64,000 bases of DNA from Mobula hypostoma. Lineage: Eukaryota. The position numbers were made by a program, and so were the translations under genes. The stretch lies in the NCBI RefSeq assembly GCF_963921235.1, contig NC_086097.1, positions 164,116,001 to 164,180,000 of the forward strand, given 5' to 3'. Below the pieces are notes generated by a model. The model did not search any database, was not told the origin of the DNA, and saw nothing but the letters and a program-made list of their open reading frames with translations. This document shows positions 30,665-57,385 of the stretch, in pieces (within the stretch, counting starts at the first letter, position 1; every line of letters begins with the position of its first letter).

Positions 30665-31020
30665 ACATGCACACAGTACAGCAAAGGAACAGGCCCTTCA
30701 TCCCAAGAAGTCTATGCCAAACGGGATGCCAAATTAAGCCAAGTTTCTCGATCCATGTCCCTCCACTGCATGCAAACTCATGTGTCTATCCAAAAACTTC
30801 TTAAATTCTACTATTGCAAATGTTTTCACCAATACCCCAGCAGCTCATTCCAAGCAGCTATAATTTTCTCTTTAAAAATACTTGCCCCGCACAGCTCCTT
30901 TAAACTCATCCCCCACCACCATCACACCTTAAATGTATATACTCTAATATTTGATAGTTCTACCCTGGGAAGACCACAAGAATCTGACTGTCTACCGTAT
31001 CTATGTCTGTCATAATCTCA
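30665..31020 (-). mobile_element. CR1 3' fragment
   Basis: acagtacagcaaaggaacaggcccttca… terminus and reverse complement of the CR1 ORF2 end. Confidence 0.65.
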
Positions 31021-32112
31021 TGAATGTCTCTCGGCCTCTGGCGCTCCGGACAGTCCAACCTTACCTTTTACCTCATACCCACTCATCCAGGCAGTATCCT
31101 AATCCATGTTTACAAATCCCTCTGTGGTCTCACCCTATTCTATCTCTGTAATCTCTCCCAGCCCAATACCCAGTGGGGATATCTGTGCTCCACTAATTTA
31201 GGCTGTCTGCTCATTCCTGAGTATCATCACTCCACCTACTCTGTTGCTCCCAAGATCCTCAACCTCCCAGCACCACGGGGAAATACGTCATGAAGCCTGT
31301 TGGGGAAGCATTTACCATTTAACTGTATTGCACTGTAGGTGATTGCTCCTTTCTTTCAGTGATTTACCAGATGGATGTTCCTGGTTCTGATAGGAGTGAG
31401 TTGGGTGGAAATTCTCAGCCAAAGGGACATGGTCCCAGCAGAAGGGATTGACCATCCAGAATTATCTCTGGGTGGCGGACTGTGCATCTTCAGAATTCTT
31501 GACTTCAGACAGCTGTAGATGCTCAGTTGTTATGTATATTAAAAGCAGAGCTGGGCGGGTTTTTGAGCATCAGAGGAATCAGGAGCTGTGGGCACAGAGT
31601 TGGAGAAGATGCAGGATCAGCCATTTAATGACGGAGTAGGCTGAAAGGAGCAAATGAGCTATCTCAATTCATAATACGCTTTAGCTTAGGTTTTAACAAC
31701 CTGCAAATCTTAGAAGAAAAGGAAGACTGCCCAATGCTAAGAACTCCTGGTTTTGATCTCCAGAGAAGAGTAAAAGTAAGAGGGAGTAAAAGGAGTCCTG
31801 ATTTTGATACAGCAAGAATCTAGTAAGGAGACAAGGCATAACATAATGACAGGATCTTGGGAGCAACAGAGTAGGTGGAGTGATGATATTCAGGGATGAG
31901 CAGACAGCCCGAATTAGTGGAGCACTGATATTCCCACTGGGTATTGGGCTGGGAGAGATTACAGAGATAGAATAGGGTGAGATCACAGAGGGATTTGTAA
32001 ACATGGATTAGGATGCTGCCTGGATGAGAGGGCATGAGGTAAAAGGTAAGGTTGGACTGTCTGGAGTGCCAGAGGCCGAGAGACATTCGTAAGATTATGA
32101 TAGACATAGATA
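30998..32112. repeat. 262-bp inverted duplication (arms 30998-31259 and 31851-32112, 591-bp spacer)
   Basis: Ungapped manual alignment of one arm to the reverse complement of the other gave about 15 mismatches in 262 bp. The ORF track shows mirrored peptides. Confidence 0.95.
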
Positions 32113-44509: not shown

Positions 44510-45920
44510 AATGTGCCTTCCAGTGCCTAAGAAGAATAATGTGAGATGCCTTAATGACTATTGCCCAGTAGCACTACAGTGATGAAATGCATTGAGAGGT
44601 TGGTCATGACTAGACTGAACTCCTGCCTCAGCAAGGACCTGGACCCATTACAATTTGCCTATTGCCACAATAGGTCAATGGCAGATGCAATCTCAATGGC
44701 TCTCCACACGGCCATAGCCCACCTAGACAACACAAACACCTATGTTAGGGTGAAGTTCATTGACTATAGTTCAGCATTTAATACCATCATTCTATCAATC
44801 CTGATTGAGAAGTTACAGAGCCTGGGCCTCCGTACCTCTCTCTGCAATTGGATCCTCGTCTTCCTAACTGAAAGACCACAATCTGTGCAGATTGGTGATA
44901 CCATCTCCTCCTCGCTGCTGATCAACACTGGCGCACCTCGGTTGTGTGTGATTAGCCCACTGCTCTACTCCCAATATACACATGACTGTGTGGCTAGGTA
45001 TAGCTGAAATACCATTTATAAATTTGCCAGTGGTGCTGCAACCGATGTTGGTAGAATCTCAGATGGTGACGAGAGGGCGTACAGGAGTGAGATATGTCAA
45101 CTAGTGGAGTGGTGTCACAGCAACAACCTTGCACTCAGTGTCAGTAAGATGAAAGAGCTGATTGTGGTCTTCAGGAAGGATAGAATGAAGGAACACATAC
45201 CAATCCTCATGGAGGGATTAGAAGTGGCGAGAGTGATCAGCTTCAAGTTCCTGGGTGTCAAGGTCTCTGAGGATCTAACCTGGTCCCAACATATCGATGC
45301 ATTTATAAAGAAGGCAAGATAGCGTCTATAGTTCATTAGGAGTTTGAAGAGATCTGGAATGTCAACAAATACACTCAAAAACTTGTACAGTTGTACTGTG
45401 GAGAGCATTCTGACAGGCTGCATCACTGTCCGGTATGGGGGGGTCTACTGCACAGGACTGAAAGAAGCTGCAGAGGGTCATAAAGTTAGTTGGCTCCATC
45501 TTGGGTACTAGCCTGCAAAGTACCCAGGACATCTTCAAGGAACAGTGTCTCAGAAAAGCAATGTCCATTATTAAGGACCCCCAGCACCCAGGACATGCCG
45601 TTTTCTCACTGTTGCCATCAGGTAGGAGTTACAGGAGATTGAAGGCACACACTCAGCGATTCAGGAACAACTTCTACCCCTCTGCCATTCGATTCCTAAT
45701 TGGACTTTGAATCCTTGAACACTACCTCACTTTTTTAATATATATTTCTGTTTTTTGCATGATTTTTAATCTATTCAATATACATATACTGTAATTGATT
45801 TATTTATTATTATTATAGTCTTTTTTTCTTCTATTTTTTTTATTGCATCGAACTGCTCCTGAAACTTAACAAATTTCACGACATATGCAGGTGATAATAA
45901 ACCTGATTCTAATTCTGATT
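44510..45920 (+). mobile_element. 5'-truncated Rex1/Babar-type LINE (RT pseudogene)
   Basis: [40 protein letters not shown] plus (GATTCT)n tail. Confidence 0.9.
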
Positions 45921-45951
45921 CTCTAAAGGTTCATTTGCAGGTTAAGTTAGT

Positions 45952-46598
45952 CCCAACATGTTGATGTGGTCATAAAGAAGGCAAAACAGCAGCTATACTT
46001 TATTAGGAGTTTGAAGCGATTTGGCATGTCAACAAATATACTCAAAAACTTCTATAGTTGTACCGCGGAAAGCATTCTGACAGGCTGCATCACTGTCTGG
46101 TATGGAGGAGCTACTGCACAGAACCGAAAGAAGCTGCAGAAGGTTGTAAATCTAGTCAGCTCCATCTTGGGCTCTAGCCTACAAAGTACCCAGGACATCT
46201 TTAGGAAGCAGTGTCTCAGAAAGGCAGCATCTATTATTAAAGACCTCCAGCACCCAGGGCATGCACTTTCTTACTGTTACCATCAGGTAGGAGAGACAGA
46301 AGCCTGAAGGCACACACTCAATGATTCAGGAACAGCTTCTTCCCCTCTGCCATCCAATTCCTAAATGGATGTTGAAGCTTTGGACACTACCTCACTTTTT
46401 TAATGTACGGTATTTCTGTTTTTGCTCATTTTTAATAATCTATTCAATATACGTAATTGATTTACTTGTTTATTTATTATTATGTTTTATGTTATTATCA
46501 TTTTTTTCTCTCTCTGCTAGATTATGTATTGCATTGAACTGCTGCTACTAAGTTAACAAATTTCAAGTCACATGCTGGTAATAATAAATCTGATTCTG
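45952..46598 (+). mobile_element. Second, shorter Rex-type LINE copy in tandem
   Basis: Homologous to about 45282-45915. Ends aataaatctgattctga. Confidence 0.9.
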
Positions 46599-49772: not shown

Positions 49773-50874
49773 ATAGGTAATTCCTAGTTTTAGGGAAATT
49801 TATGTTCCTGGCAGCTGAAGAGAAAAGAAATTTACAATTGACACATCAGACATAGCATTGCTCAACAGATTAGTGAAATATTCCTAAAGTACCAATTTAT
49901 CTCTTTACTTTGCTTATTTAAGTGATGAACTTATCATAGGTAAGAACAAGAGGTCAAAGGGTTAATGATGCTACTGTTGTGACTTTCATGGTCAAATATA
50001 ATATATGCTACATAGCTCGTTATTTCTGCAATATGCACTTAGACAGTCTTGGATGTGAGCTTGCAACCAATTCTTTACTTAAGGTCTGATTGTGGTGTTT
50101 CTGGCCAGGTGGCATCAGATTAAGTTTGGTTTTCTTTAATCATACAACTTGAAATAAAAGGCTGTCTGTTCAATTTAGTGCAGTTTTCCTTAGGTTATAT
50201 TTCTAATATGATGATTGGGTGAGATGTTGCTGTCGTGCGTTTGGGCAGTGGCCTTTTCCCTCCAGGGCATGGGTTCACATCAGCCAGCTTAATAGGATGA
50301 AAATCTCCCCAGCCTGCAAGTTGCGTGGCTTCAGTGTTAAGTCACGTTCAGAAATCCAAATTTAGTTCCTGGCAATCACAGCTTCAGATAAGTTATCCTT
50401 AAATGGTTGCTGTCATTCACAGGGGATTTAGGTTTGTGTAGTGGTATCCTTGCCATTCAACTTGTGGTTAAGGTTGAGACCGAGTTACCCTGATAATGGA
50501 AGTGGAAATAGGTCCAATTCTGCTTCCATGATCAGCATGAAATCTGCAAATGGTACATGAAGGTTTGGAGTTAGGGATGCTGGACTGATGATAGAAAGCT
50601 TCATCTGCCTTTTTCTGATATTCAAATTATTATGGTATTTGGAGCTCCTGAGCACTGGAATTATCCACAGCTCCTCACAAGTGAAATGAAGCAGATTTCA
50701 TTATTGTAGAGATAATGTAATTCTTTCTTAACACGCAGCTAAAGATTCTTTCATTTGAAAAAGAGAATTGACATTAAAGCAATTTCACTGAATGATTATG
50801 TGACCCAGGAATATTAGGTTGATAGCTTAGCTTCACTTCAGTGCTCTCTTTAACAATTCAGTATTTGGGTGTAT

Positions 50875-51058
50875 GGGGTGTCTAGGGAGGGGTAGCGCCT
50901 CTGGTGGGGGGGCTTACCGTGCCCTTTTCAGGGCAACTCGTCCACCTTTGGTCCCCACGTGGCGCTCAGCTCTCACCTGTGGCTCCAAATAGCTGTAGCA
51001 CGCGCAGCGGCCACACCCCAATAAACCGTCTCGGCAGACGGGCTAAACCAGGTGAGGG
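50875..51058 (+). ncRNA. HDV-like ribozyme fold at the RTE 5' end (probably mutated)
   Basis: P1 GGGGTGT 50875-81 / ACACCCC 51013-19; P2 CTCTCACCTG 50970-79 / CAGGTGAGGG 51049-58; P3 GGC 50981-83 / GCC 51010-12; L3 begins TCC; P4 CCGTCT/AGACGG 51026-41; J4/2 GCTAA 51042-46. The GG expected for P1.1 reads AA. Confidence 0.75.
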
Positions 51059-54000
51059 TAGCCGAGGGTCGGTGAGATAGGGGATCTGTCTATCCCAGCG
51101 TGTGAAGTCTGTCCCTGGCAGATTGAGCAGAGGAGACCGATTTAATGGTCCAATGGTCAAGAAGTCAGGCCCAGCAGGCGTTGTGGAGCACTAAGAGCAC
51201 GTATAGACACTTAGACGTCCCGATCATCCACTGCAGCAGGAGAGGTCTCCAGCCGTAACGGTTGTCCGTGTCACTAGATCAAGGTCTCTTCTGCTGAGAG
51301 AGTGGGATTGCCCCTGTGCAATAGCTATTCCAGTTAAAACTCCCATCACACACAGATTTCTGTTGTGCGGTTCATCTCAGTCCAAACTCAACTCGTCAAG
51401 CCCTGTGGCAATGGGGAAGTTGCGAAGCAACAGGTGGAGATGACCACTGGCAGTTGTAGTCACAAACCTGCACGTAGGCGGACTTTGGACCAGTGGTCGT
51501 TCGTCTCTGTAGCCAGGGCAGCAGAGATGTCCGGCAGCATCCGGGCGACTGGGCAGCCCTTTTTAGGACAGCACTGCTCACCCTCGCATGAGGGAGGGGT
51601 TAGAAAAGGTACCCTAAACATTGCCTGCCCCACAACATCTGGCTAGCTAACCGCGGCTGGCGAATCATCTCCTTAGCGATCGACATGCATCAAGAAAAAC
51701 AAATCAAAGAAATCTCATCTTTGGAGCCTGCAATGTCCGCACCCTGCTGCATAGAGACAAGGTGGCAAGGCCTGAAAGACAAATAGCACTCATAGCGGCC
51801 GAGCTTCGCCATTATCGCATTGACATCACCGCACTCAGTGAGACCAGGCTTGCAGACGAGGGTTCATTACAGGAAGCAGTGAGTGGATATACGTTCTTTT
51901 GGAAAGGGAAACCACAGACTGACAACAGGATCCACGGAGTAGGTTTTGCAATCAAAACTGCTCTGCTGAAGAACATCCCTACTCTACCCACTGGAATAAA
52001 TGAACATATCATGAAGTTCCACTTTCCTCTCAGCAAGTCCCGGTATATCAGCATTGTCAGTATCTGCACCAACTCTCATGAGTCCAGACGAAGACAAGGA
52101 AAGTTTCTACGAGGACTTGGACCAGACTACTCTGACAACCCCCGCCAGCGATAAACTCATCATCTTGGGCAACTTCAATGCTAGGGTGGGGACAGACGGC
52201 GACAACTGGGACGGAGTCCTTGGGAGACATGGGGTGGGAAAACTAAACAGTAATGGCCTGCTGCTTCTGAACAAGTGTGCTGAGCACAACCTGTGCATCA
52301 CTAACACAATGTTCAGACTTGCAAACAAGTACAAAACAACCTGGATGCATCCCAGGTCCAGACACTGGCATCTACTCGACCATGTCATAGTACACCAGCG
52401 TGACCTTCAAGACATCACCATTACCCGGGCCATGCGAGGTGCTGAGTGTTGGACAGATCACAGGTTGGTTCAGTCGGTCCTCAACCTGCACATAGCCCCT
52501 TTGCATCGTAAGCAACCAAAGACTGTCAGAGTGTCATTCAACATCGGCAGACTGCAAGACTCAGGTCAAGTCCAACATTTTTAAGATGTACTTAATGAAA
52601 AACTCTCCGGCAATTCACTGCTTGTGGGAACCTGTTCTGAAAAGTGAACGCAGTTCAAAGATGTCATCACACAGACTGCAGCAACTGTACTTGGACTGAA
52701 AACCTGAGTGCATCAAGACTGGTTTGATGAAAACCACGAGACCAATTCAGCAGCCTTTCAGGGCAAGAACAAGGCCGATGCAGACTGGCAGAATGACCAG
52801 TCATCTGTTTCAAAGAAAGACAAGTTTAAACACCTGCAGTCCAAAGTACAGGCAGAACTGCGAGAAATGCAGGACGAATGGTGGAATGCTAAGCAGACAT
52901 GCATGCCACCAGAGAGTTCTTCAGCGCCATGAAGTCAGTTTATGGTCCTTCTAAATCAGAATGCTCCCCCTTGCTGTCATCTGACGGATCGAGCCTGATC
53001 AAAGACCAGGAAGGACTGCAAAACCGCTGGGCTGAACACTTCTCCGACCTATTCAATAGGCTGTCCGCAGTTGATCCTGATGTCTTACAGCAGATCCCTC
53101 AGCAGCCAGTCCTGGATGACCTAGACCTGCCGCCCTCTACTGATGAAATCAAGAAAGCGATCTCCTAGACAAACTCAAATAAAGCAACAGGGCAGAATGG
53201 CATTCCTGCCGAGATCTACAAAGCATTAGGCCCAAATGCCTTACAGGCGTTCCAGGACATCTGGATCACAGAGGAGGTGCCTGATGACTTCCACGATGCC
53301 CTCATCGTGGCTCCCTACAAAAACAAGGGAAGCAAATCAGACTGCAGAAACTACAGGGGTATCTCACTGCTGTCCATCGCAGGCAAGACTTCTGCCCGCA
53401 TTCTCCTGAACAGACTTGTCACTGTCTTGGAAAGGAACCTCCCAGAGGTGCAGTGTGGCTTTCAGCTAGAACGGAGTACAGTAGACATGATACTTGCCGT
53501 GAGGCATGTCCAGGAGAAGTGCATCGAGCAGAACAAGCCTCTTTACTGTCTTCATTGACCTGACAAAGGCATTTGACACTGTAAATAGGGAGGCCTCTGG
53601 ATCATCCTGAGACATTACGGGTGTGCAAGGAAATTCGTGAAGATGGTTCAGCTGCTCCACGACGGAATGACAGGACAGGTCCTTCGCAGTGGTGATACGT
53701 CAGCTGCATTTGCCATTTCCAATGGGGTGAAGCAGGGCGCTGTACTAGCCCCAGTCCTGTTCAATCTGTTCTTCACTTGCATGTTGTTGCGTGCTGTCCA
53801 AGGTCTGAGAGAGGGAGTGTATATCAGGTACTGATTGGACGGCTCTTTCGTTGACCTTCGCCACTTGAACGGACGGACGAAGTGCCTCCATACAGTCATT
53901 CAAGAAACCCTCTTTGCTGATGACTGTGTGCTCCTGGTGCACAAAGACAGTGATCTACAGTTGATGCTGAACAAATTCTCAGACGCTGCTACGCCCTTTG

Positions 54001-54897
54001 GCCTGACTATCAGCCTGAACAAGATTGAAGTACTTCACCAGCTCGTGCCAAACACCAACCCCATAGAACCAAAAATCACTGTTGTCGACACCCAGCTGAC
54101 AAATGTAAACAGCTTCAAATACTTGGGAAGCATCATCTCGAGTGATGGGTCTTTGGACAAAGAAATTGATTGCAGGATCAGCAAGGCCAGCCAGGCTCTG
54201 GGGAGGCTGTGTAGCAGAATGCTCAGTCAACACAACATCCGCATCTCCACAAAACTGAAAGTCTACAGAGTTGTGGTCATCCCTTCTCTAAATGGATTGA
54301 GACATGGACTCTGTACTGATGACACATCAAACAACTGGAGAAATTTCACATGCGCGCCCTCCACTCCATCCTTGGCATTCATTGGCAACACCGTGTCTCC
54401 AACCTGGAGGTCTTGGATCGCGCGGAGTCCACCAGCATTGAGTCCCTGATCATCAGAGCCCAGATGCGGTGGGTGGGACACATCATCAGAATGGACGACC
54501 ACTCTATGCCTCTCCAGCTGCTCTATGGTGAACTGGAGACCGGAAAGAGACCTCAAGGTCGCCCACGAAAGCGCTACAAAGATGCTGCGAAGGAAACCCT
54601 ACGCTACTATGACATCCAGCCAAGGGAACTAGAAGCTGCGGCTGCTGACAGAACCCGCTGGGGCGAGCCCTGTGCTATGAAGCCTACACCAGTTTTGAAG
54701 ACAGGCGCTGCCAAAAACTGATGGAAAACCGTGAGCAGCGTCACAGAACAGCAGCCACAATTATTACAACAACAGACTTCCAGTGCCCCCATTGTGCTAG
54801 ACTCTGCGCTTCCAGATTGCGACTGCAGAGCCTCCTCCGTGTCCACAGATGAAATGCACAACAGCATATCTTCTTCGAATCCGAAGGACTACCACAA
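50875..54897 (+). mobile_element. Full-length RTE-clade LINE (inactivated single ORF: APE + RT + C-terminal zinc finger)
   Basis: ~830-bp GC-rich 5' UTR. GACNVRTL, ALSETR, GVGFAI, GNFNARVG, TDH (APE); NYRGISLLS, GVKQG, LFADD, FKYLGS (RT); C-terminal CPHC…RVH. Short 3' UTR. Many frameshifts and stops. Confidence 0.93.
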
Positions 54898-55280: not shown

Positions 55281-57091
55281 GTTGTACAGGTTCTGAAAAG
55301 TAACTGTAAAGCAACATGATGTTCAGTTTTGCTGTGTAAATGTACAGTCATATATAAAGAGGAATTTCTTCATAATTCCTTCCAACTTTTGGCCAAACTA
55401 TTAAGATAAGGGAGGAGAGATTCCAAATAGAGGAAGAAAAAAATTGTTAAACAGAATCAATTCTAAAACCTCATTTTCCATTGAGGTTGAGTAAGTAAGA
55501 CAAAAATCAATGGAACATTTATTTGTTCTTTGTGTCCAGGAGGATTCCTAACAGAGTTTCTGGACATAACTAGAGAAGAGGCTATACTGCATCTAATACT
55601 TGGCAATTAACTAGGTTAGTCATGTATCAGACCTCTCTATGGCTCAGTATATCAGAGATGGTGACCACAACTCCCTGAGCTATTGCATGGCCGTGGAAGA
55701 GGTTAGGACATGGACAATATGGAAATCATTTAATTGTGGGAGGGCTAATTACAAAGATGTTCAGCATGAATTTATCTAGCATGGATAGAACATTGGCTGA
55801 GTGGGAATAAATGGAGCCTTTTCTGGTTGGCTACCGGCAACTAGTGGTATTCCACAGGAGTCTGTGTTGGGACCATTTCTTTTTACATTATGTGTCAATG
55901 ATTTGGAAGATGGAATTGATAGCTTGGCGGCCAAGTTTGCACATGATATGAAGATTGGTGGAGGGGCAGATAGTGTTGAGGAAGCAGCAAGACTACAGAA
56001 GGACTTAGATTAGGAGAATAGGCAAAGAAGTGGCAGACAGAAGTGTATAAGTTGTGCACTTTGGTGGAAGTAAAAGCCTAAACTATTTTCTAAATGGAGA
56101 AAAAAATTAAAAATTTGAGGTGCAAGGGAACTTGGGAGTCCTTGTGCAGGAGGTTCCTTTGTAGGTTCAGTCGGTGGTGAGGAAGGCAAATGCAACGTTA
56201 ATATTAATTTTGAGAGGACTAGAATATTAAACAAGGATGTAATAATGTTCAGGCTTTATAAGGCACTGGTGAGGCTTCACTTGGAACTTTGTGAGCAGTT
56301 TTGTGCCCATTATCTAAAAAGTGATGTGTTGACATTGGAGAGGGTTCAAAGTAGGTTCATGAAACTGAGCTCGTTGATTTCATTAACTTTACCTCCAACT
56401 TTCACCCTGCCCTCAAGTTTACCTGGTCCATTTCTGAACACCTCCCTCCCCTTTCTAGATCTTTCTGTCTCTATCTCTGGAGACAGCTTATCTAAATGGA
56501 TATCTACTATAAGCCTACTGACTCTCACAGCTATCTGGACTATTCCTCTTCTCACCCTGTCTCTTGCAAAAACGCCATCCCCTTCTCGCAATTCCTCCGT
56601 CTCCGCCGCATCTGCTCTCAGGATGAGGCTTTTCATTCTAGGACGAGGGAGATGTTCTCCTTTTTTAAAGAAAGGGGCTTCCCTTCCTCCACCATAAGCT
56701 CTGCTTTCAAACGCATCTCCTCCATTTCATGCACATCTGCTCTCACTCCATCCTCCCGCCACCCCACTAGGAATAGGGTTCCCCTTGTCCTCACCTACCA
56801 CCCCACCAGCCTCCGGGTCCAACATATAATTCTCCATAACTTTTGCCACCTCCAACGGGATCCCACCACTAAGCACATCTTCCCCCGCTCTGCTTTCCAC
56901 AGGGATTGCTCCCTACGCGACTCCCTTGTCCACTCGTTCCCCCCCCCCAATCCCTCCCCACCGATCTCCCTCCTGGCACTTGTAAGTGGAACAAGTGCTA
57001 CACATGCCCTTACACTTCCTCCCTCACCACCATTCAGGGCCCCAGACAGTCCTTCTAGGTGAGGTGACACTTCACCTGTGAGTCGGCTGGG

Positions 57092-57385
57092 GTGATATAC
57101 TGCGTCCGGTGCTCCCGATGCAGCCTTCTATATATTGGCGAGACCCAACGCAGACTGGGAGATCGTTTCGCTGAACACCTACGCTCCGTCTGCCAGAGAA
57201 AGAAGGATCTCCCAGTGGCCACACATTTTAATTCCACATCCCATTCCCATTCTGACATGTCTATCCACGGCCTCCTCTACTGTAAAGATGAAGCCACGCT
57301 CAGGTTGGAGGAACAACACCTTATATTCCGTCTGGGTAGCCTCCAACCTGATGGCATGAACATTGACTTCTCTAACTTCCGCTAA
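57092..57385 (+). pseudogene. GIY-YIG endonuclease domain of the PLE (domain frame open, upstream ORF broken)
   Basis: ORF-track peptide with IY..YIG, conserved R, H, E and terminal GMN motif. Confidence 0.85.

What the first reader, a model, noticed from the sequence alone, without database searches (positions are those of the whole stretch)
50875..51058. HDV-like ribozyme at the RTE 5' end, with an extra hairpin in L3 and a structured J1/2
Seen: the RTE begins with pairings in HDV order: P1 (7 bp, 50875-81/51013-19), P2 (10 bp, 50970-79/51049-58), P3 (3 bp), L3 starting UCC, P4 hairpin (51026-41) and J4/2 GCUAA with a candidate catalytic C at 51043. L3 is 26 nt rather than about 7-8 and contains its own stem (GCTG 50992-95 / CAGC 51005-08). 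J1/2 (about 88 nt) is closed by AGCGCC/GGCGCT and GTGGGG/CCCCAC, with an inner TGCCC-TTTTCA-GGGCA hairpin. Known: HDV-like ribozymes process the 5' ends of R2 and some RTE retrotransposons. Inference: this family uses an L3-expanded variant. This copy is probably dead, because the P1.1 GG reads AA (51020-21) and the L3 G reads A (TCCAAAT).
Basis: partly seen in the sequence, partly recalled or inferred. Interest (0 to 1): 0.7.

Follow-up and report, generated by a model that had tools for sequence, protein, structure and literature searches.

The report
Retrotransposon ribozyme with extra loop hairpin
This is a worn-out copy of a jumping gene whose family starts with a hepatitis-delta-type self-cutting RNA that carries an unusual extra hairpin inside its catalytic loop, and that hairpin may clip onto a sequence further downstream.

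Summary
Largely confirmed, with one correction and one addition. The window holds a dead, near full-length APE+RT (RTE-type) LINE. Its 5' end is an HDV-like double pseudoknot. Four homologous 5' ends from metagenome contigs (4 of 80 loci) and contigs of 4 sequencing runs show that the family has the P1.1 GG, G25 and catalytic C, with covariation in P1, P2 and P4. This copy has lost GG, G25 and G+1.

Correction: the family begins at 50866, not 50875 (85-97 contigs per DNA run break there). The second GGGGTG closes the J1/2 domain instead.

The 26-29 nt L3 with a 5-bp hairpin is a family trait (5 of 5). Eleven more distant RTE loci have ordinary 7-8 nt loops.

Addition: the hairpin loop can pair (6 bp, 30 of 30 cells, one compensatory change) with a conserved strand about 40 nt past P2, a possible third pseudoknot.

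Cleavage is untested. The scan already noted the L3 hairpin on another piece of this genome (e1-7813318). I found no report of it in the open library, but three key papers were unreadable. Verdict: new variant of a known kind.

The parts
50866..50872 (+). P1 5' strand and first bases of the element; predicted cleavage 5' of 50866. Family G at +1, T in this copy.
   Evidence: Loose contig ends before 50867 in 95, 97 and 85 contigs of X1, X5, X12, consensus last letter G, agreement about 0.4; L002, L003, L073 start here after unrelated flanks and L073 has a compensatory U-A.
50873..50969 (+). J1/2 domain (97 nt): long imperfect hairpin that starts one base after P1 and ends one base before P2. 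Closing helix TGGG 50874-77 / CTCA 50965-68 (or GGGTG 50876-80 / 50963-67), then GGGG 50889-92 / CCCC 50953-56, 50897-99 / 50950-52, 50903-08 / 50941-46, inner hairpin 50920-35.
   Evidence: Cells paired over 5 sequences: 20 of 20, 22 of 25, 20 of 20 (with AGAG/CTCT and GAGG/CCTC), 15 of 15, 26 of 30, 16 of 25; single-sequence folds; RNAalifold.
50875..50881 (+). In the family it belongs to the J1/2 closing helix; it could act as a spare P1 strand in some copies.
   Evidence: As P1: 0 two-sided changes, 82% of cells paired, only 3 of 7 pairs in L073.
50970..50980 (+). P2 5' strand (10 bp plus U50980-A51047 at the top)
   Evidence: one two-sided change (L003), 94% of cells paired.
50981..50983 (+). 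P3 5' strand GGC
   Evidence: Invariant in 5 of 5.
50984..50991 (+). Canonical part of L3: U20, C21, C22, N, N, G25, W, A. G25 position (50989) reads A in this copy.
   Evidence: G at 50989 in 4 of 4 relatives and 86-99% of depth in four runs.
50992..51008 (+). Hairpin inserted in L3: 5-bp stem GCTGT/GCAGC, 7-nt loop AGCACGC
   Evidence: Present in 5 of 5; 24 of 25 cells paired, two one-sided changes, no two-sided change; sister subfamily GCTGT-TTGCATGYG-ACAGC in 96, 84, 16 and 83 contigs.
51010..51019 (+). P3 3' strand GCC and P1 3' strand ACACCCC
51020..51021 (+). P1.1 partner: GG in the family, AA in this copy
   Evidence: GG in 4 of 4 relatives; G in 76-81% (51020) and 95-100% (51021) of depth.
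51026..51041 (+). P4 hairpin, 6 bp
   Evidence: 3 of 6 pairs with two-sided changes, 97% of cells paired.
51042..51046 (+). J4/2 G-C-T-A-A with candidate catalytic C51043; 51044 varies T/C in the family
   Evidence: Invariant in 5 of 5; 51044 C in 55-71% of depth.
51047..51058 (+). P2 3' strand; A51047 pairs U50980 with C51048 bulged (L004 lacks the bulge)
   Evidence: same layout as the antigenomic HDV C19-G80 pair with G81 extruded (PMC2175327, passages).
51061..51093 (+). Two sequence-variable hairpins between P2 and the docking strand
   Evidence: Two hairpins predicted in 4 of 5 sequences, one longer hairpin in L073; none beats shuffles (z +0.4 to -1.5).
51098..51107 (+). Conserved GCRTGTGAAG; 51098-103 is complementary to the L3 hairpin loop 50998-51003
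   Evidence: 30 of 30 cells paired, 1 two-sided and 2 one-sided changes; motif in all 5 L3-hairpin sequences and only 2 misplaced one-mismatch hits in the other 76 loci.
51720..54849 (+). Broken single ORF: APE endonuclease + reverse transcriptase, 59-69% identical to intact P0013 over residues 1-1056, in 5 pieces (4 frame changes) with 11 stops
54872..54892 (+). Short 3' tail with a small hairpin; probable 3' end. No clear target-site duplication.
   Evidence: Sequence and TSD search; the end is inferred, not mapped.

Best explanation
The family is an RTE-type LINE whose RNA begins with an HDV-like self-cleaving ribozyme. Read-through transcription makes the element RNA; P1 (50866-72 with 51013-19), P2, P3, P1.1 and P4 fold into the nested double pseudoknot; C51043 cleaves 5' of position 50866 and frees the RNA with a defined 5' end, which is why insertions start there. 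The 97-nt J1/2 is one long helix that begins one base after P1 and ends one base before P2, the 'pinch' layout that speeds up other large HDV-like ribozymes. The new element is a 5-bp hairpin inserted in L3 after the G25 position, leaving U20, C21, C22 and G25 in their usual spacing. Its loop most likely pairs with the conserved strand at 51098-103, giving an extra long-range helix that forms only after about 40 more bases are transcribed and either clamps the core or shuts it after cleavage. This copy is inactive (G+1, G25 and both P1.1 Gs lost; ORF broken). Shown: sequence, conservation, covariation, 5' boundary. Inferred: cleavage, the pinch effect, docking and its role. Odds: active ribozyme in the family about 0.85; docking helix real about 0.55; this copy inactive about 0.9.
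For: 5' ends: 95, 97, 85 contigs in three DNA-type runs leave the window sequence just before 50867, 7 at 50871, none listed at 50875 among the 24 rows shown; 3 of 4 relatives start at the same base. Covariation on 5 sequences: 8 of 39 pairs with two-sided changes against 2.3 in shuffles (0 of 500) and 1-3 in slid controls. GG and G25 are the family state. Catalytic C and AA invariant. Defining residues as listed in PMC6326823 (passages). HDV-like ribozymes at RTE 5' ends are stated in PMC6765202 (passages). Pinch: PMC4908430 (part 1 of 4). Docking: 30 of 30 cells paired; the window subfamily has CACG/CGTG where relatives have CATG/CATG; C is the majority at 51001 in the three DNA-type runs (77-80%), so the loop change is not private to this copy; the site is the longest or second-longest contiguous complement of the loop within the roughly 830-870 nt leader in 5 of 5 and stays mostly or wholly unpaired in local folds.
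Against: No cleavage data. Only 5 full sequences, and the structure was derived from them, so the controls flatter it. Two of the three two-sided P1 changes come from L004, whose first bases pair at only 4 of 7. The L3 stem has no two-sided change. The docking helix has a single two-sided change, 3 of its 6 pairs never vary, and position 51100 is not among the 40 variant rows shown (57 hidden), so its family state is only inferred. In X8, T is the majority at 51001 (67%). L3 lines the active site and a G-to-A change there abolished cleavage in a wasp R2 ribozyme (PMC3774820, passages), so a 19-nt insert could impair it. Contig ends are genomic boundaries, not RNA ends; an internal promoter would also give a fixed start.
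Confidence: 0.78

Rival explanations
1. Active HDV-like ribozyme, but the L3 hairpin is a tolerated passenger that points into solvent; the match to 51098-103 is chance or inherited and the downstream motif is conserved for another reason (for example protein binding).
For: Only one two-sided change in the docking helix and none in the stem; a 6-bp match with G.U is common in 800 nt (L002 has a 7-pair rival site); 11 related loci do without the hairpin.
Against: The hairpin is kept in 5 of 5 sequences that are only 68-73% alike over the leader; the GCRTGTGAAG motif occurs in register only in hairpin-bearing sequences; both sides change together in the window subfamily.
Confidence: 0.33
2. The L3 hairpin is a kissing loop: its palindromic loop (GCAUGC, ACAUGU) dimerises two element RNAs.
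For: Palindromic loops in L002, L004, L073 and in the high-copy sister subfamily; L3-mediated dimers were seen in CPEB3 crystals (bioRxiv 10.1101/2022.09.22.508989, passages).
Against: The window subfamily's loop GCACGC/ACACGC is not self-complementary yet keeps the match to the downstream strand; L003's ACAUGC is imperfect.
Confidence: 0.1
3. The fold is a non-catalytic descendant of an HDV-like ribozyme, kept for translation initiation or ORF-protein binding, and the fixed 5' end comes from an internal promoter.
For: No RNA-end or cleavage data; the L3 insert lies at the active site; position 24 is often A, not C.
Against: The 5' end coincides with the first base of a covarying P1, and U20, G25, the P1.1 pairs and the catalytic C are all conserved, which a non-catalytic role would not need.
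Confidence: 0.1
4. One reading: P1 is 50875-81 and cleavage is at G50875.
For: Perfect 7-bp match in this copy and in L002.
Against: No two-sided change, 3 of 7 pairs in L073; family ends lie 9 nt upstream; the strand is used by the J1/2 closing helix.
Confidence: 0.04

Closest known systems
[quoted passage not shown] 2011, not readable here; known to me through PMC6765202 and PMC7761336 passages and recall), including Anopheles drz-Agam-2-1
   Same: Position at the first base of a non-LTR element; P1-P4 and P1.1 order; extended P2 (11-12 bp); large structured J1/2 that juxtaposes P1 and P2 (PMC4908430, part 1 of 4 read).
   Different: L3 of 26-29 nt with an internal hairpin in place of 7-8 nt; a candidate helix between that hairpin loop and a strand 3' of P2. 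PMC4908430 describes peripheral domains in J1/2 only, in the part I read.
R2 retrotransposon ribozymes (PMC3774820, passages and section 16)
   Same: Release of element RNA from a co-transcript; 6-7 bp P1; variable J1/2 and P4; conserved L3 G.
   Different: P1.1, P3 and L3 together span about fifteen nucleotides in R2; here L3 alone is 26. Different LINE clade, no fixed target site seen.
HDV antigenomic ribozyme (PMC2175327, passages)
   Same: J4/2 C-U-A-A followed by a pair at the top of P2 with the next base bulged.
   Different: 7-nt L3, short J1/2, viral context.
CPEB3 ribozyme L3 dimer (bioRxiv 10.1101/2022.09.22.508989, passages)
   Same: L3 sequence can make pairs outside the core.
   Different: There the 7-nt L3 itself pairs between molecules at the cost of P1.1; here a separate hairpin loop is available without opening P1.1.

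Membership tests
HDV-like ribozymes | Nested double pseudoknot: P1, P2, P3, P1.1, P4 in HDV order | tested here: met
   All helices present in 5 sequences; two-sided changes in P1, P2, P4. P1.1 is absent in this copy only.
HDV-like ribozymes | G at +1 of a 6-7 bp P1, at the processed 5' end | tested here: met
   Genomic boundary at 50866, G in the family. Indirect: DNA ends, not RNA ends. T in this copy.
HDV-like ribozymes | P1.1: C21, C22 with GG right after P1 | tested here: met
   4 of 4 relatives; 76-81% and 95-100% of depth. Not met in this copy (AA).
HDV-like ribozymes | U20 and G25 five bases apart in L3 | tested here: met
   4 of 4 relatives; 86-99% of depth. Not met in this copy (A50989).
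HDV-like ribozymes | Catalytic C in J4/2 followed by N-R-A | tested here: met
   GGCTAAAC invariant in 5 of 5; only the N position appears among the variant rows shown.
HDV-like ribozymes (canonical form) | L3 of about 7-8 unpaired nucleotides | tested here: not met
   26-29 nt with a hairpin. Filed as a variant for this reason.
HDV-like ribozymes | Mg-dependent self-cleavage lost on C-to-U change | not testable with these tools
   Needs an in vitro assay.
RTE-clade LINE | Single ORF with APE endonuclease and reverse transcriptase | tested here: met
   Pfam Exo_endo_phos and RVT_1 pieces; collinear with intact 1056-aa P0013.
RTE-clade LINE | Placement in the RTE clade on an RT tree with named references | not tested
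   No reference set held. Many named hits are 'craniofacial development protein 2-like'; that this name marks RTE/BovB endonucleases is recalled.
RTE-clade LINE | Short 3' tail and target-site duplication | tested here: inconclusive
   Short tail present; best TSD candidate is a 9-mer 5 nt before the start and about 60 nt after the likely end.

The most novel reading that the evidence does not exclude
A widespread animal RTE lineage, in thousands of copies in this genome, uses a triple-pseudoknot HDV-like ribozyme: a hairpin grafted into the active-site loop docks on a strand about 40 nt downstream of the core, so that cleavage is timed or switched during transcription by a tertiary contact of a kind not described for this ribozyme family and invisible to short-L3 descriptors.
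Probability: 0.4. Interest if true: 0.74.

Novelty: new variant of a known kind. Interest (0 to 1): 0.52.

Why it matters
HDV-like ribozymes are found with descriptors and are known to accept inserts in J1/2 and P4. A natural, conserved hairpin in L3 would show that the active-site loop also accepts a domain, would mean that searches with a short L3 (if that is what published descriptors use; I could not see the descriptor files) have missed a high-copy vertebrate family, and would give a third place to graft aptamers. If the loop docks downstream, it is a peripheral tertiary contact of the kind known for hammerheads and offers a direct test of co-transcriptional control of LINE 5' processing. 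The copy in the window is itself an ordinary dead insertion.

Tried and rejected
1. A second origin of the L3 hairpin. My first descriptors forced Watson-Crick P3 and read L011 and L040 as L3 of 37 and 44 nt; they carry that wrong label in the tree. Re-parsing gives a 7-nt L3 and a normal P4. Rejected.
2. An alternative short-L3 parse of the window family (GCT/AGC as P3): scores 6.5 against 13.5 in L073 and has no P1. Rejected.
Protein scan of viral contigs: none.
4. Rfam: no ribozyme match. A covariance model from the five sequences found only those five among 81 sources.
5. No own genome is held, so copies could not be collected and phased.
6. Expression: no RNA holder listed; X8 is only guessed to be RNA. 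No conclusion drawn.
7. TSD search inconclusive.
8. Three rows used offsets that were off by one (AGCGCC, TGCCC, GGGG helices); one search repeats them correctly and I cite for those.
9. Free-energy z-scores of the L3 segment, J1/2 and the post-P2 hairpins are not significant on their own.
10. Sequence and place look-ups of earlier findings returned nothing.
11. Literature: searches showed no paper on an L3 hairpin in an HDV-like ribozyme. Ruminski 2011 and Webb and Luptak 2011 are not held, Webb 2009 was not tried, and supplements were not read; any of these may show such a variant.

Full report
Observation. P3 is GGC 50981-83 with GCC 51010-12, L3 is 26 nt, and its stem is 5 bp (50992-96 with 51004-08). 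A descriptor for this layout, without asking for the P1.1 GG, hits only this site on either strand of the window and none of 100 block-shuffled strands. Rfam gives no ribozyme match.

Context. Downstream lies one broken ORF, 51720-54849, collinear with the intact 1056-aa APE+RT protein P0013 in five pieces with 11 stops. Named relatives come from corals, a sea anemone, lancelet and fishes, many labelled 'craniofacial development protein 2-like'. I call the element RTE-type from this anatomy and from recall of that label; no reference tree was made. No genome is held for the window. That the host is a cartilaginous fish comes from an earlier AI note (e1-7809226) and was not tested.

Relatives. 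A scan of metagenome contigs with the endonuclease alignment kept the best 80 of 265 loci; 49 of the 80 have 850 nt or more upstream of the match. Four (L002, L003, L004, L073) align over the ribozyme, at 68-73% identity across the leader, and a covariance model finds no others among 81 sources. All four have the L3 hairpin, GG after P1 and G five bases after the first U of L3. On these five sequences 8 of 39 pairs show two-sided changes (shuffles 2.3, 0 of 500; slid controls 1-3): three in P1, one in P2, three in P4, one in the docking helix, none in P3, P1.1 or the L3 stem. The structure was drawn from these sequences and n is small, so the controls are generous.

The 5' end is 50866, not 50875. 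Laying contigs of four runs on 50820-51200 gave loose ends just before 50867 in 95, 97 and 85 contigs of X1, X5 and X12, with low agreement and a last consensus letter G; 7 contigs of X1 broke at 50871, and no row at 50875 was among the 24 shown (566 hidden). L002, L003 and L073 begin at the homologous base after unrelated flanks; L073 changes both sides of one pair only in this register. L004 pairs at 4 of 7 there and looks damaged or clipped. The second GGGGTG instead closes J1/2: TGGG 50874-77 pairs with 50965-68 in 20 of 20 cells, followed by a covarying GGGG/CCCC helix (20 of 20). J1/2 is thus one long helix, one base from P1 and one base from P2, the arrangement that raised the rate of drz-Agam-2-1 about 100-fold (PMC4908430, part 1 of 4 read).

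This copy is dead, the family is not obviously so. In the four runs G replaces A at 51020 in 76-81% of depth, at 51021 in 95-100% and at 50989 in 86-99%. These are among the positions fixed in an HDV design descriptor (PMC6326823, passages), and loss of the L3 G abolished cleavage in a wasp R2 ribozyme (PMC3774820, passages). The top of P2, U50980-A51047 with a bulged C, mirrors the antigenomic HDV arrangement (PMC2175327, passages). Summed depth at the 5' end is over 1000 times that of the flank in X1 and X12, which points to thousands of copies, though the tool warns that depth is no copy number.

The L3 hairpin is clade-specific. Of 59 loci with enough leader to scan, 14 gave a descriptor score of 11 or more (shuffles: 1 of 295): three with L3 of 26-29 nt (L002, L003, L073) and eleven with 7-8 nt (L008, L011, L022, L024, L027, L028, L029, L034, L044, L048, L049); L004 scored lower for lack of P1. 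In a quick endonuclease tree of 71 rows (10 loci dropped for short coverage; careful search unfinished) all five hairpin-bearing sequences fall in one 19-row half and all short-L3 loci in the other (SH-aLRT 97); the 9-row group that holds the five has only 84. One gain of the hairpin is the simplest reading, but the tree is midpoint-rooted. The hairpin sits after the G25 position, so U20, C21, C22 and G25 keep their spacing. A sister subfamily with GCTGT-TTGCATGYG-ACAGC shows up as loose ends in 96, 84, 16 and 83 contigs.

Possible docking. The hairpin loop (50998-51003) is complementary to 51098-103, the start of a GCRTGTGAAG motif that is conserved between variable hairpins. All 30 cells pair; the window has C-G where the four relatives have U-A, and two more columns change on one side. 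C is the majority letter at 51001 in the three DNA-type runs (77-80%) but not in X8 (33%); position 51100 is not among the 40 variant rows shown, which suggests, without proving, that G is its majority letter. The motif occurs in all five hairpin-bearing sequences, while the other 76 loci give two one-mismatch hits at unrelated places. It is the best contiguous complement of the loop in the leader in four sequences and second best in L002; by duplex energy it is best in four and second in L073. The 39-nt linker holds two predicted hairpins and seems long enough to reach back along P2-P3; that is my estimate, not a model. The evidence is suggestive only: one two-sided change. Rivals are a passenger hairpin and a kissing-loop dimer; the latter fits the palindromic loops of some members but not the window subfamily.

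Prior knowledge and novelty. HDV-like ribozymes at RTE 5' ends are known (PMC6765202 and PMC7761336, passages). Nine searches of the open library showed no L3 hairpin; passages of PMC4513843, PMC4870747 and PMC10879173 mention inserts in J1/2, P4 or helices, or nothing on L3. The primary Luptak-group papers and all supplements were not seen, so prior description remains possible. This scan had already noted the L3 hairpin and the doubled strand in a short non-coding element of the same genome (e1-7813318), found after my own analysis. New here are the autonomous partner, relatives from other sources, the role of the doubled strand, the clade boundary and the candidate docking helix.

Verdict. 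Real feature; new variant of a known kind; this copy inactive; interest 0.52.

Noticed in passing
window 51540-51620 (weaker from 51400): A nucleotide block in the 5' leader, about 100-180 nt before the ORF, is shared with 64 of 80 RTE loci whose ribozymes and other leader parts are unrelated. The ORF has no obvious ATG near its start. It may be a translation-initiation or protein-binding element; single-sequence folding is not significant (z -0.14).
   Followed up: partly
window 50937-50988: Summed contig depth here is about 18 times that at the 5' end in X1, so the stretch around P2/P3 is shared with much more numerous subfamilies or short derivatives.
   Followed up: no
L008, L028, L029, L034, L048, L049, about 680-760 nt before the ORF match: Compact HDV-like folds with 6-bp P1, U at position 21 (one G-C in P1.1) and little or no P4, in other RTE families.
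   Followed up: partly
L006 100-400, L035, L032/L036: An RTE family with a sharp shared 5' start about 800 nt before the ORF but no HDV-like hit by my descriptor; it may use another ribozyme or none.
   Followed up: no
L044 1-60: The P1 5' strand GTGTGTG occurs in several tandem repeats at the element start, another case of a repeated cut-site strand.
   Followed up: no
window 56496-57385: Decayed Penelope-like element with a GIY-YIG domain.
   Followed up: partly
window 45283-46597: Two tandem 650-nt LINE fragments at 81% identity; one frame matches ALKBH8_N, a domain that I recall being linked to LINE 3' ends.
   Followed up: no
window 30998-31259 and 31851-32112: Inverted repeat of 262 nt at 94% identity around a 590-nt spacer, possibly a DNA transposon or two opposed short elements.
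   Followed up: no
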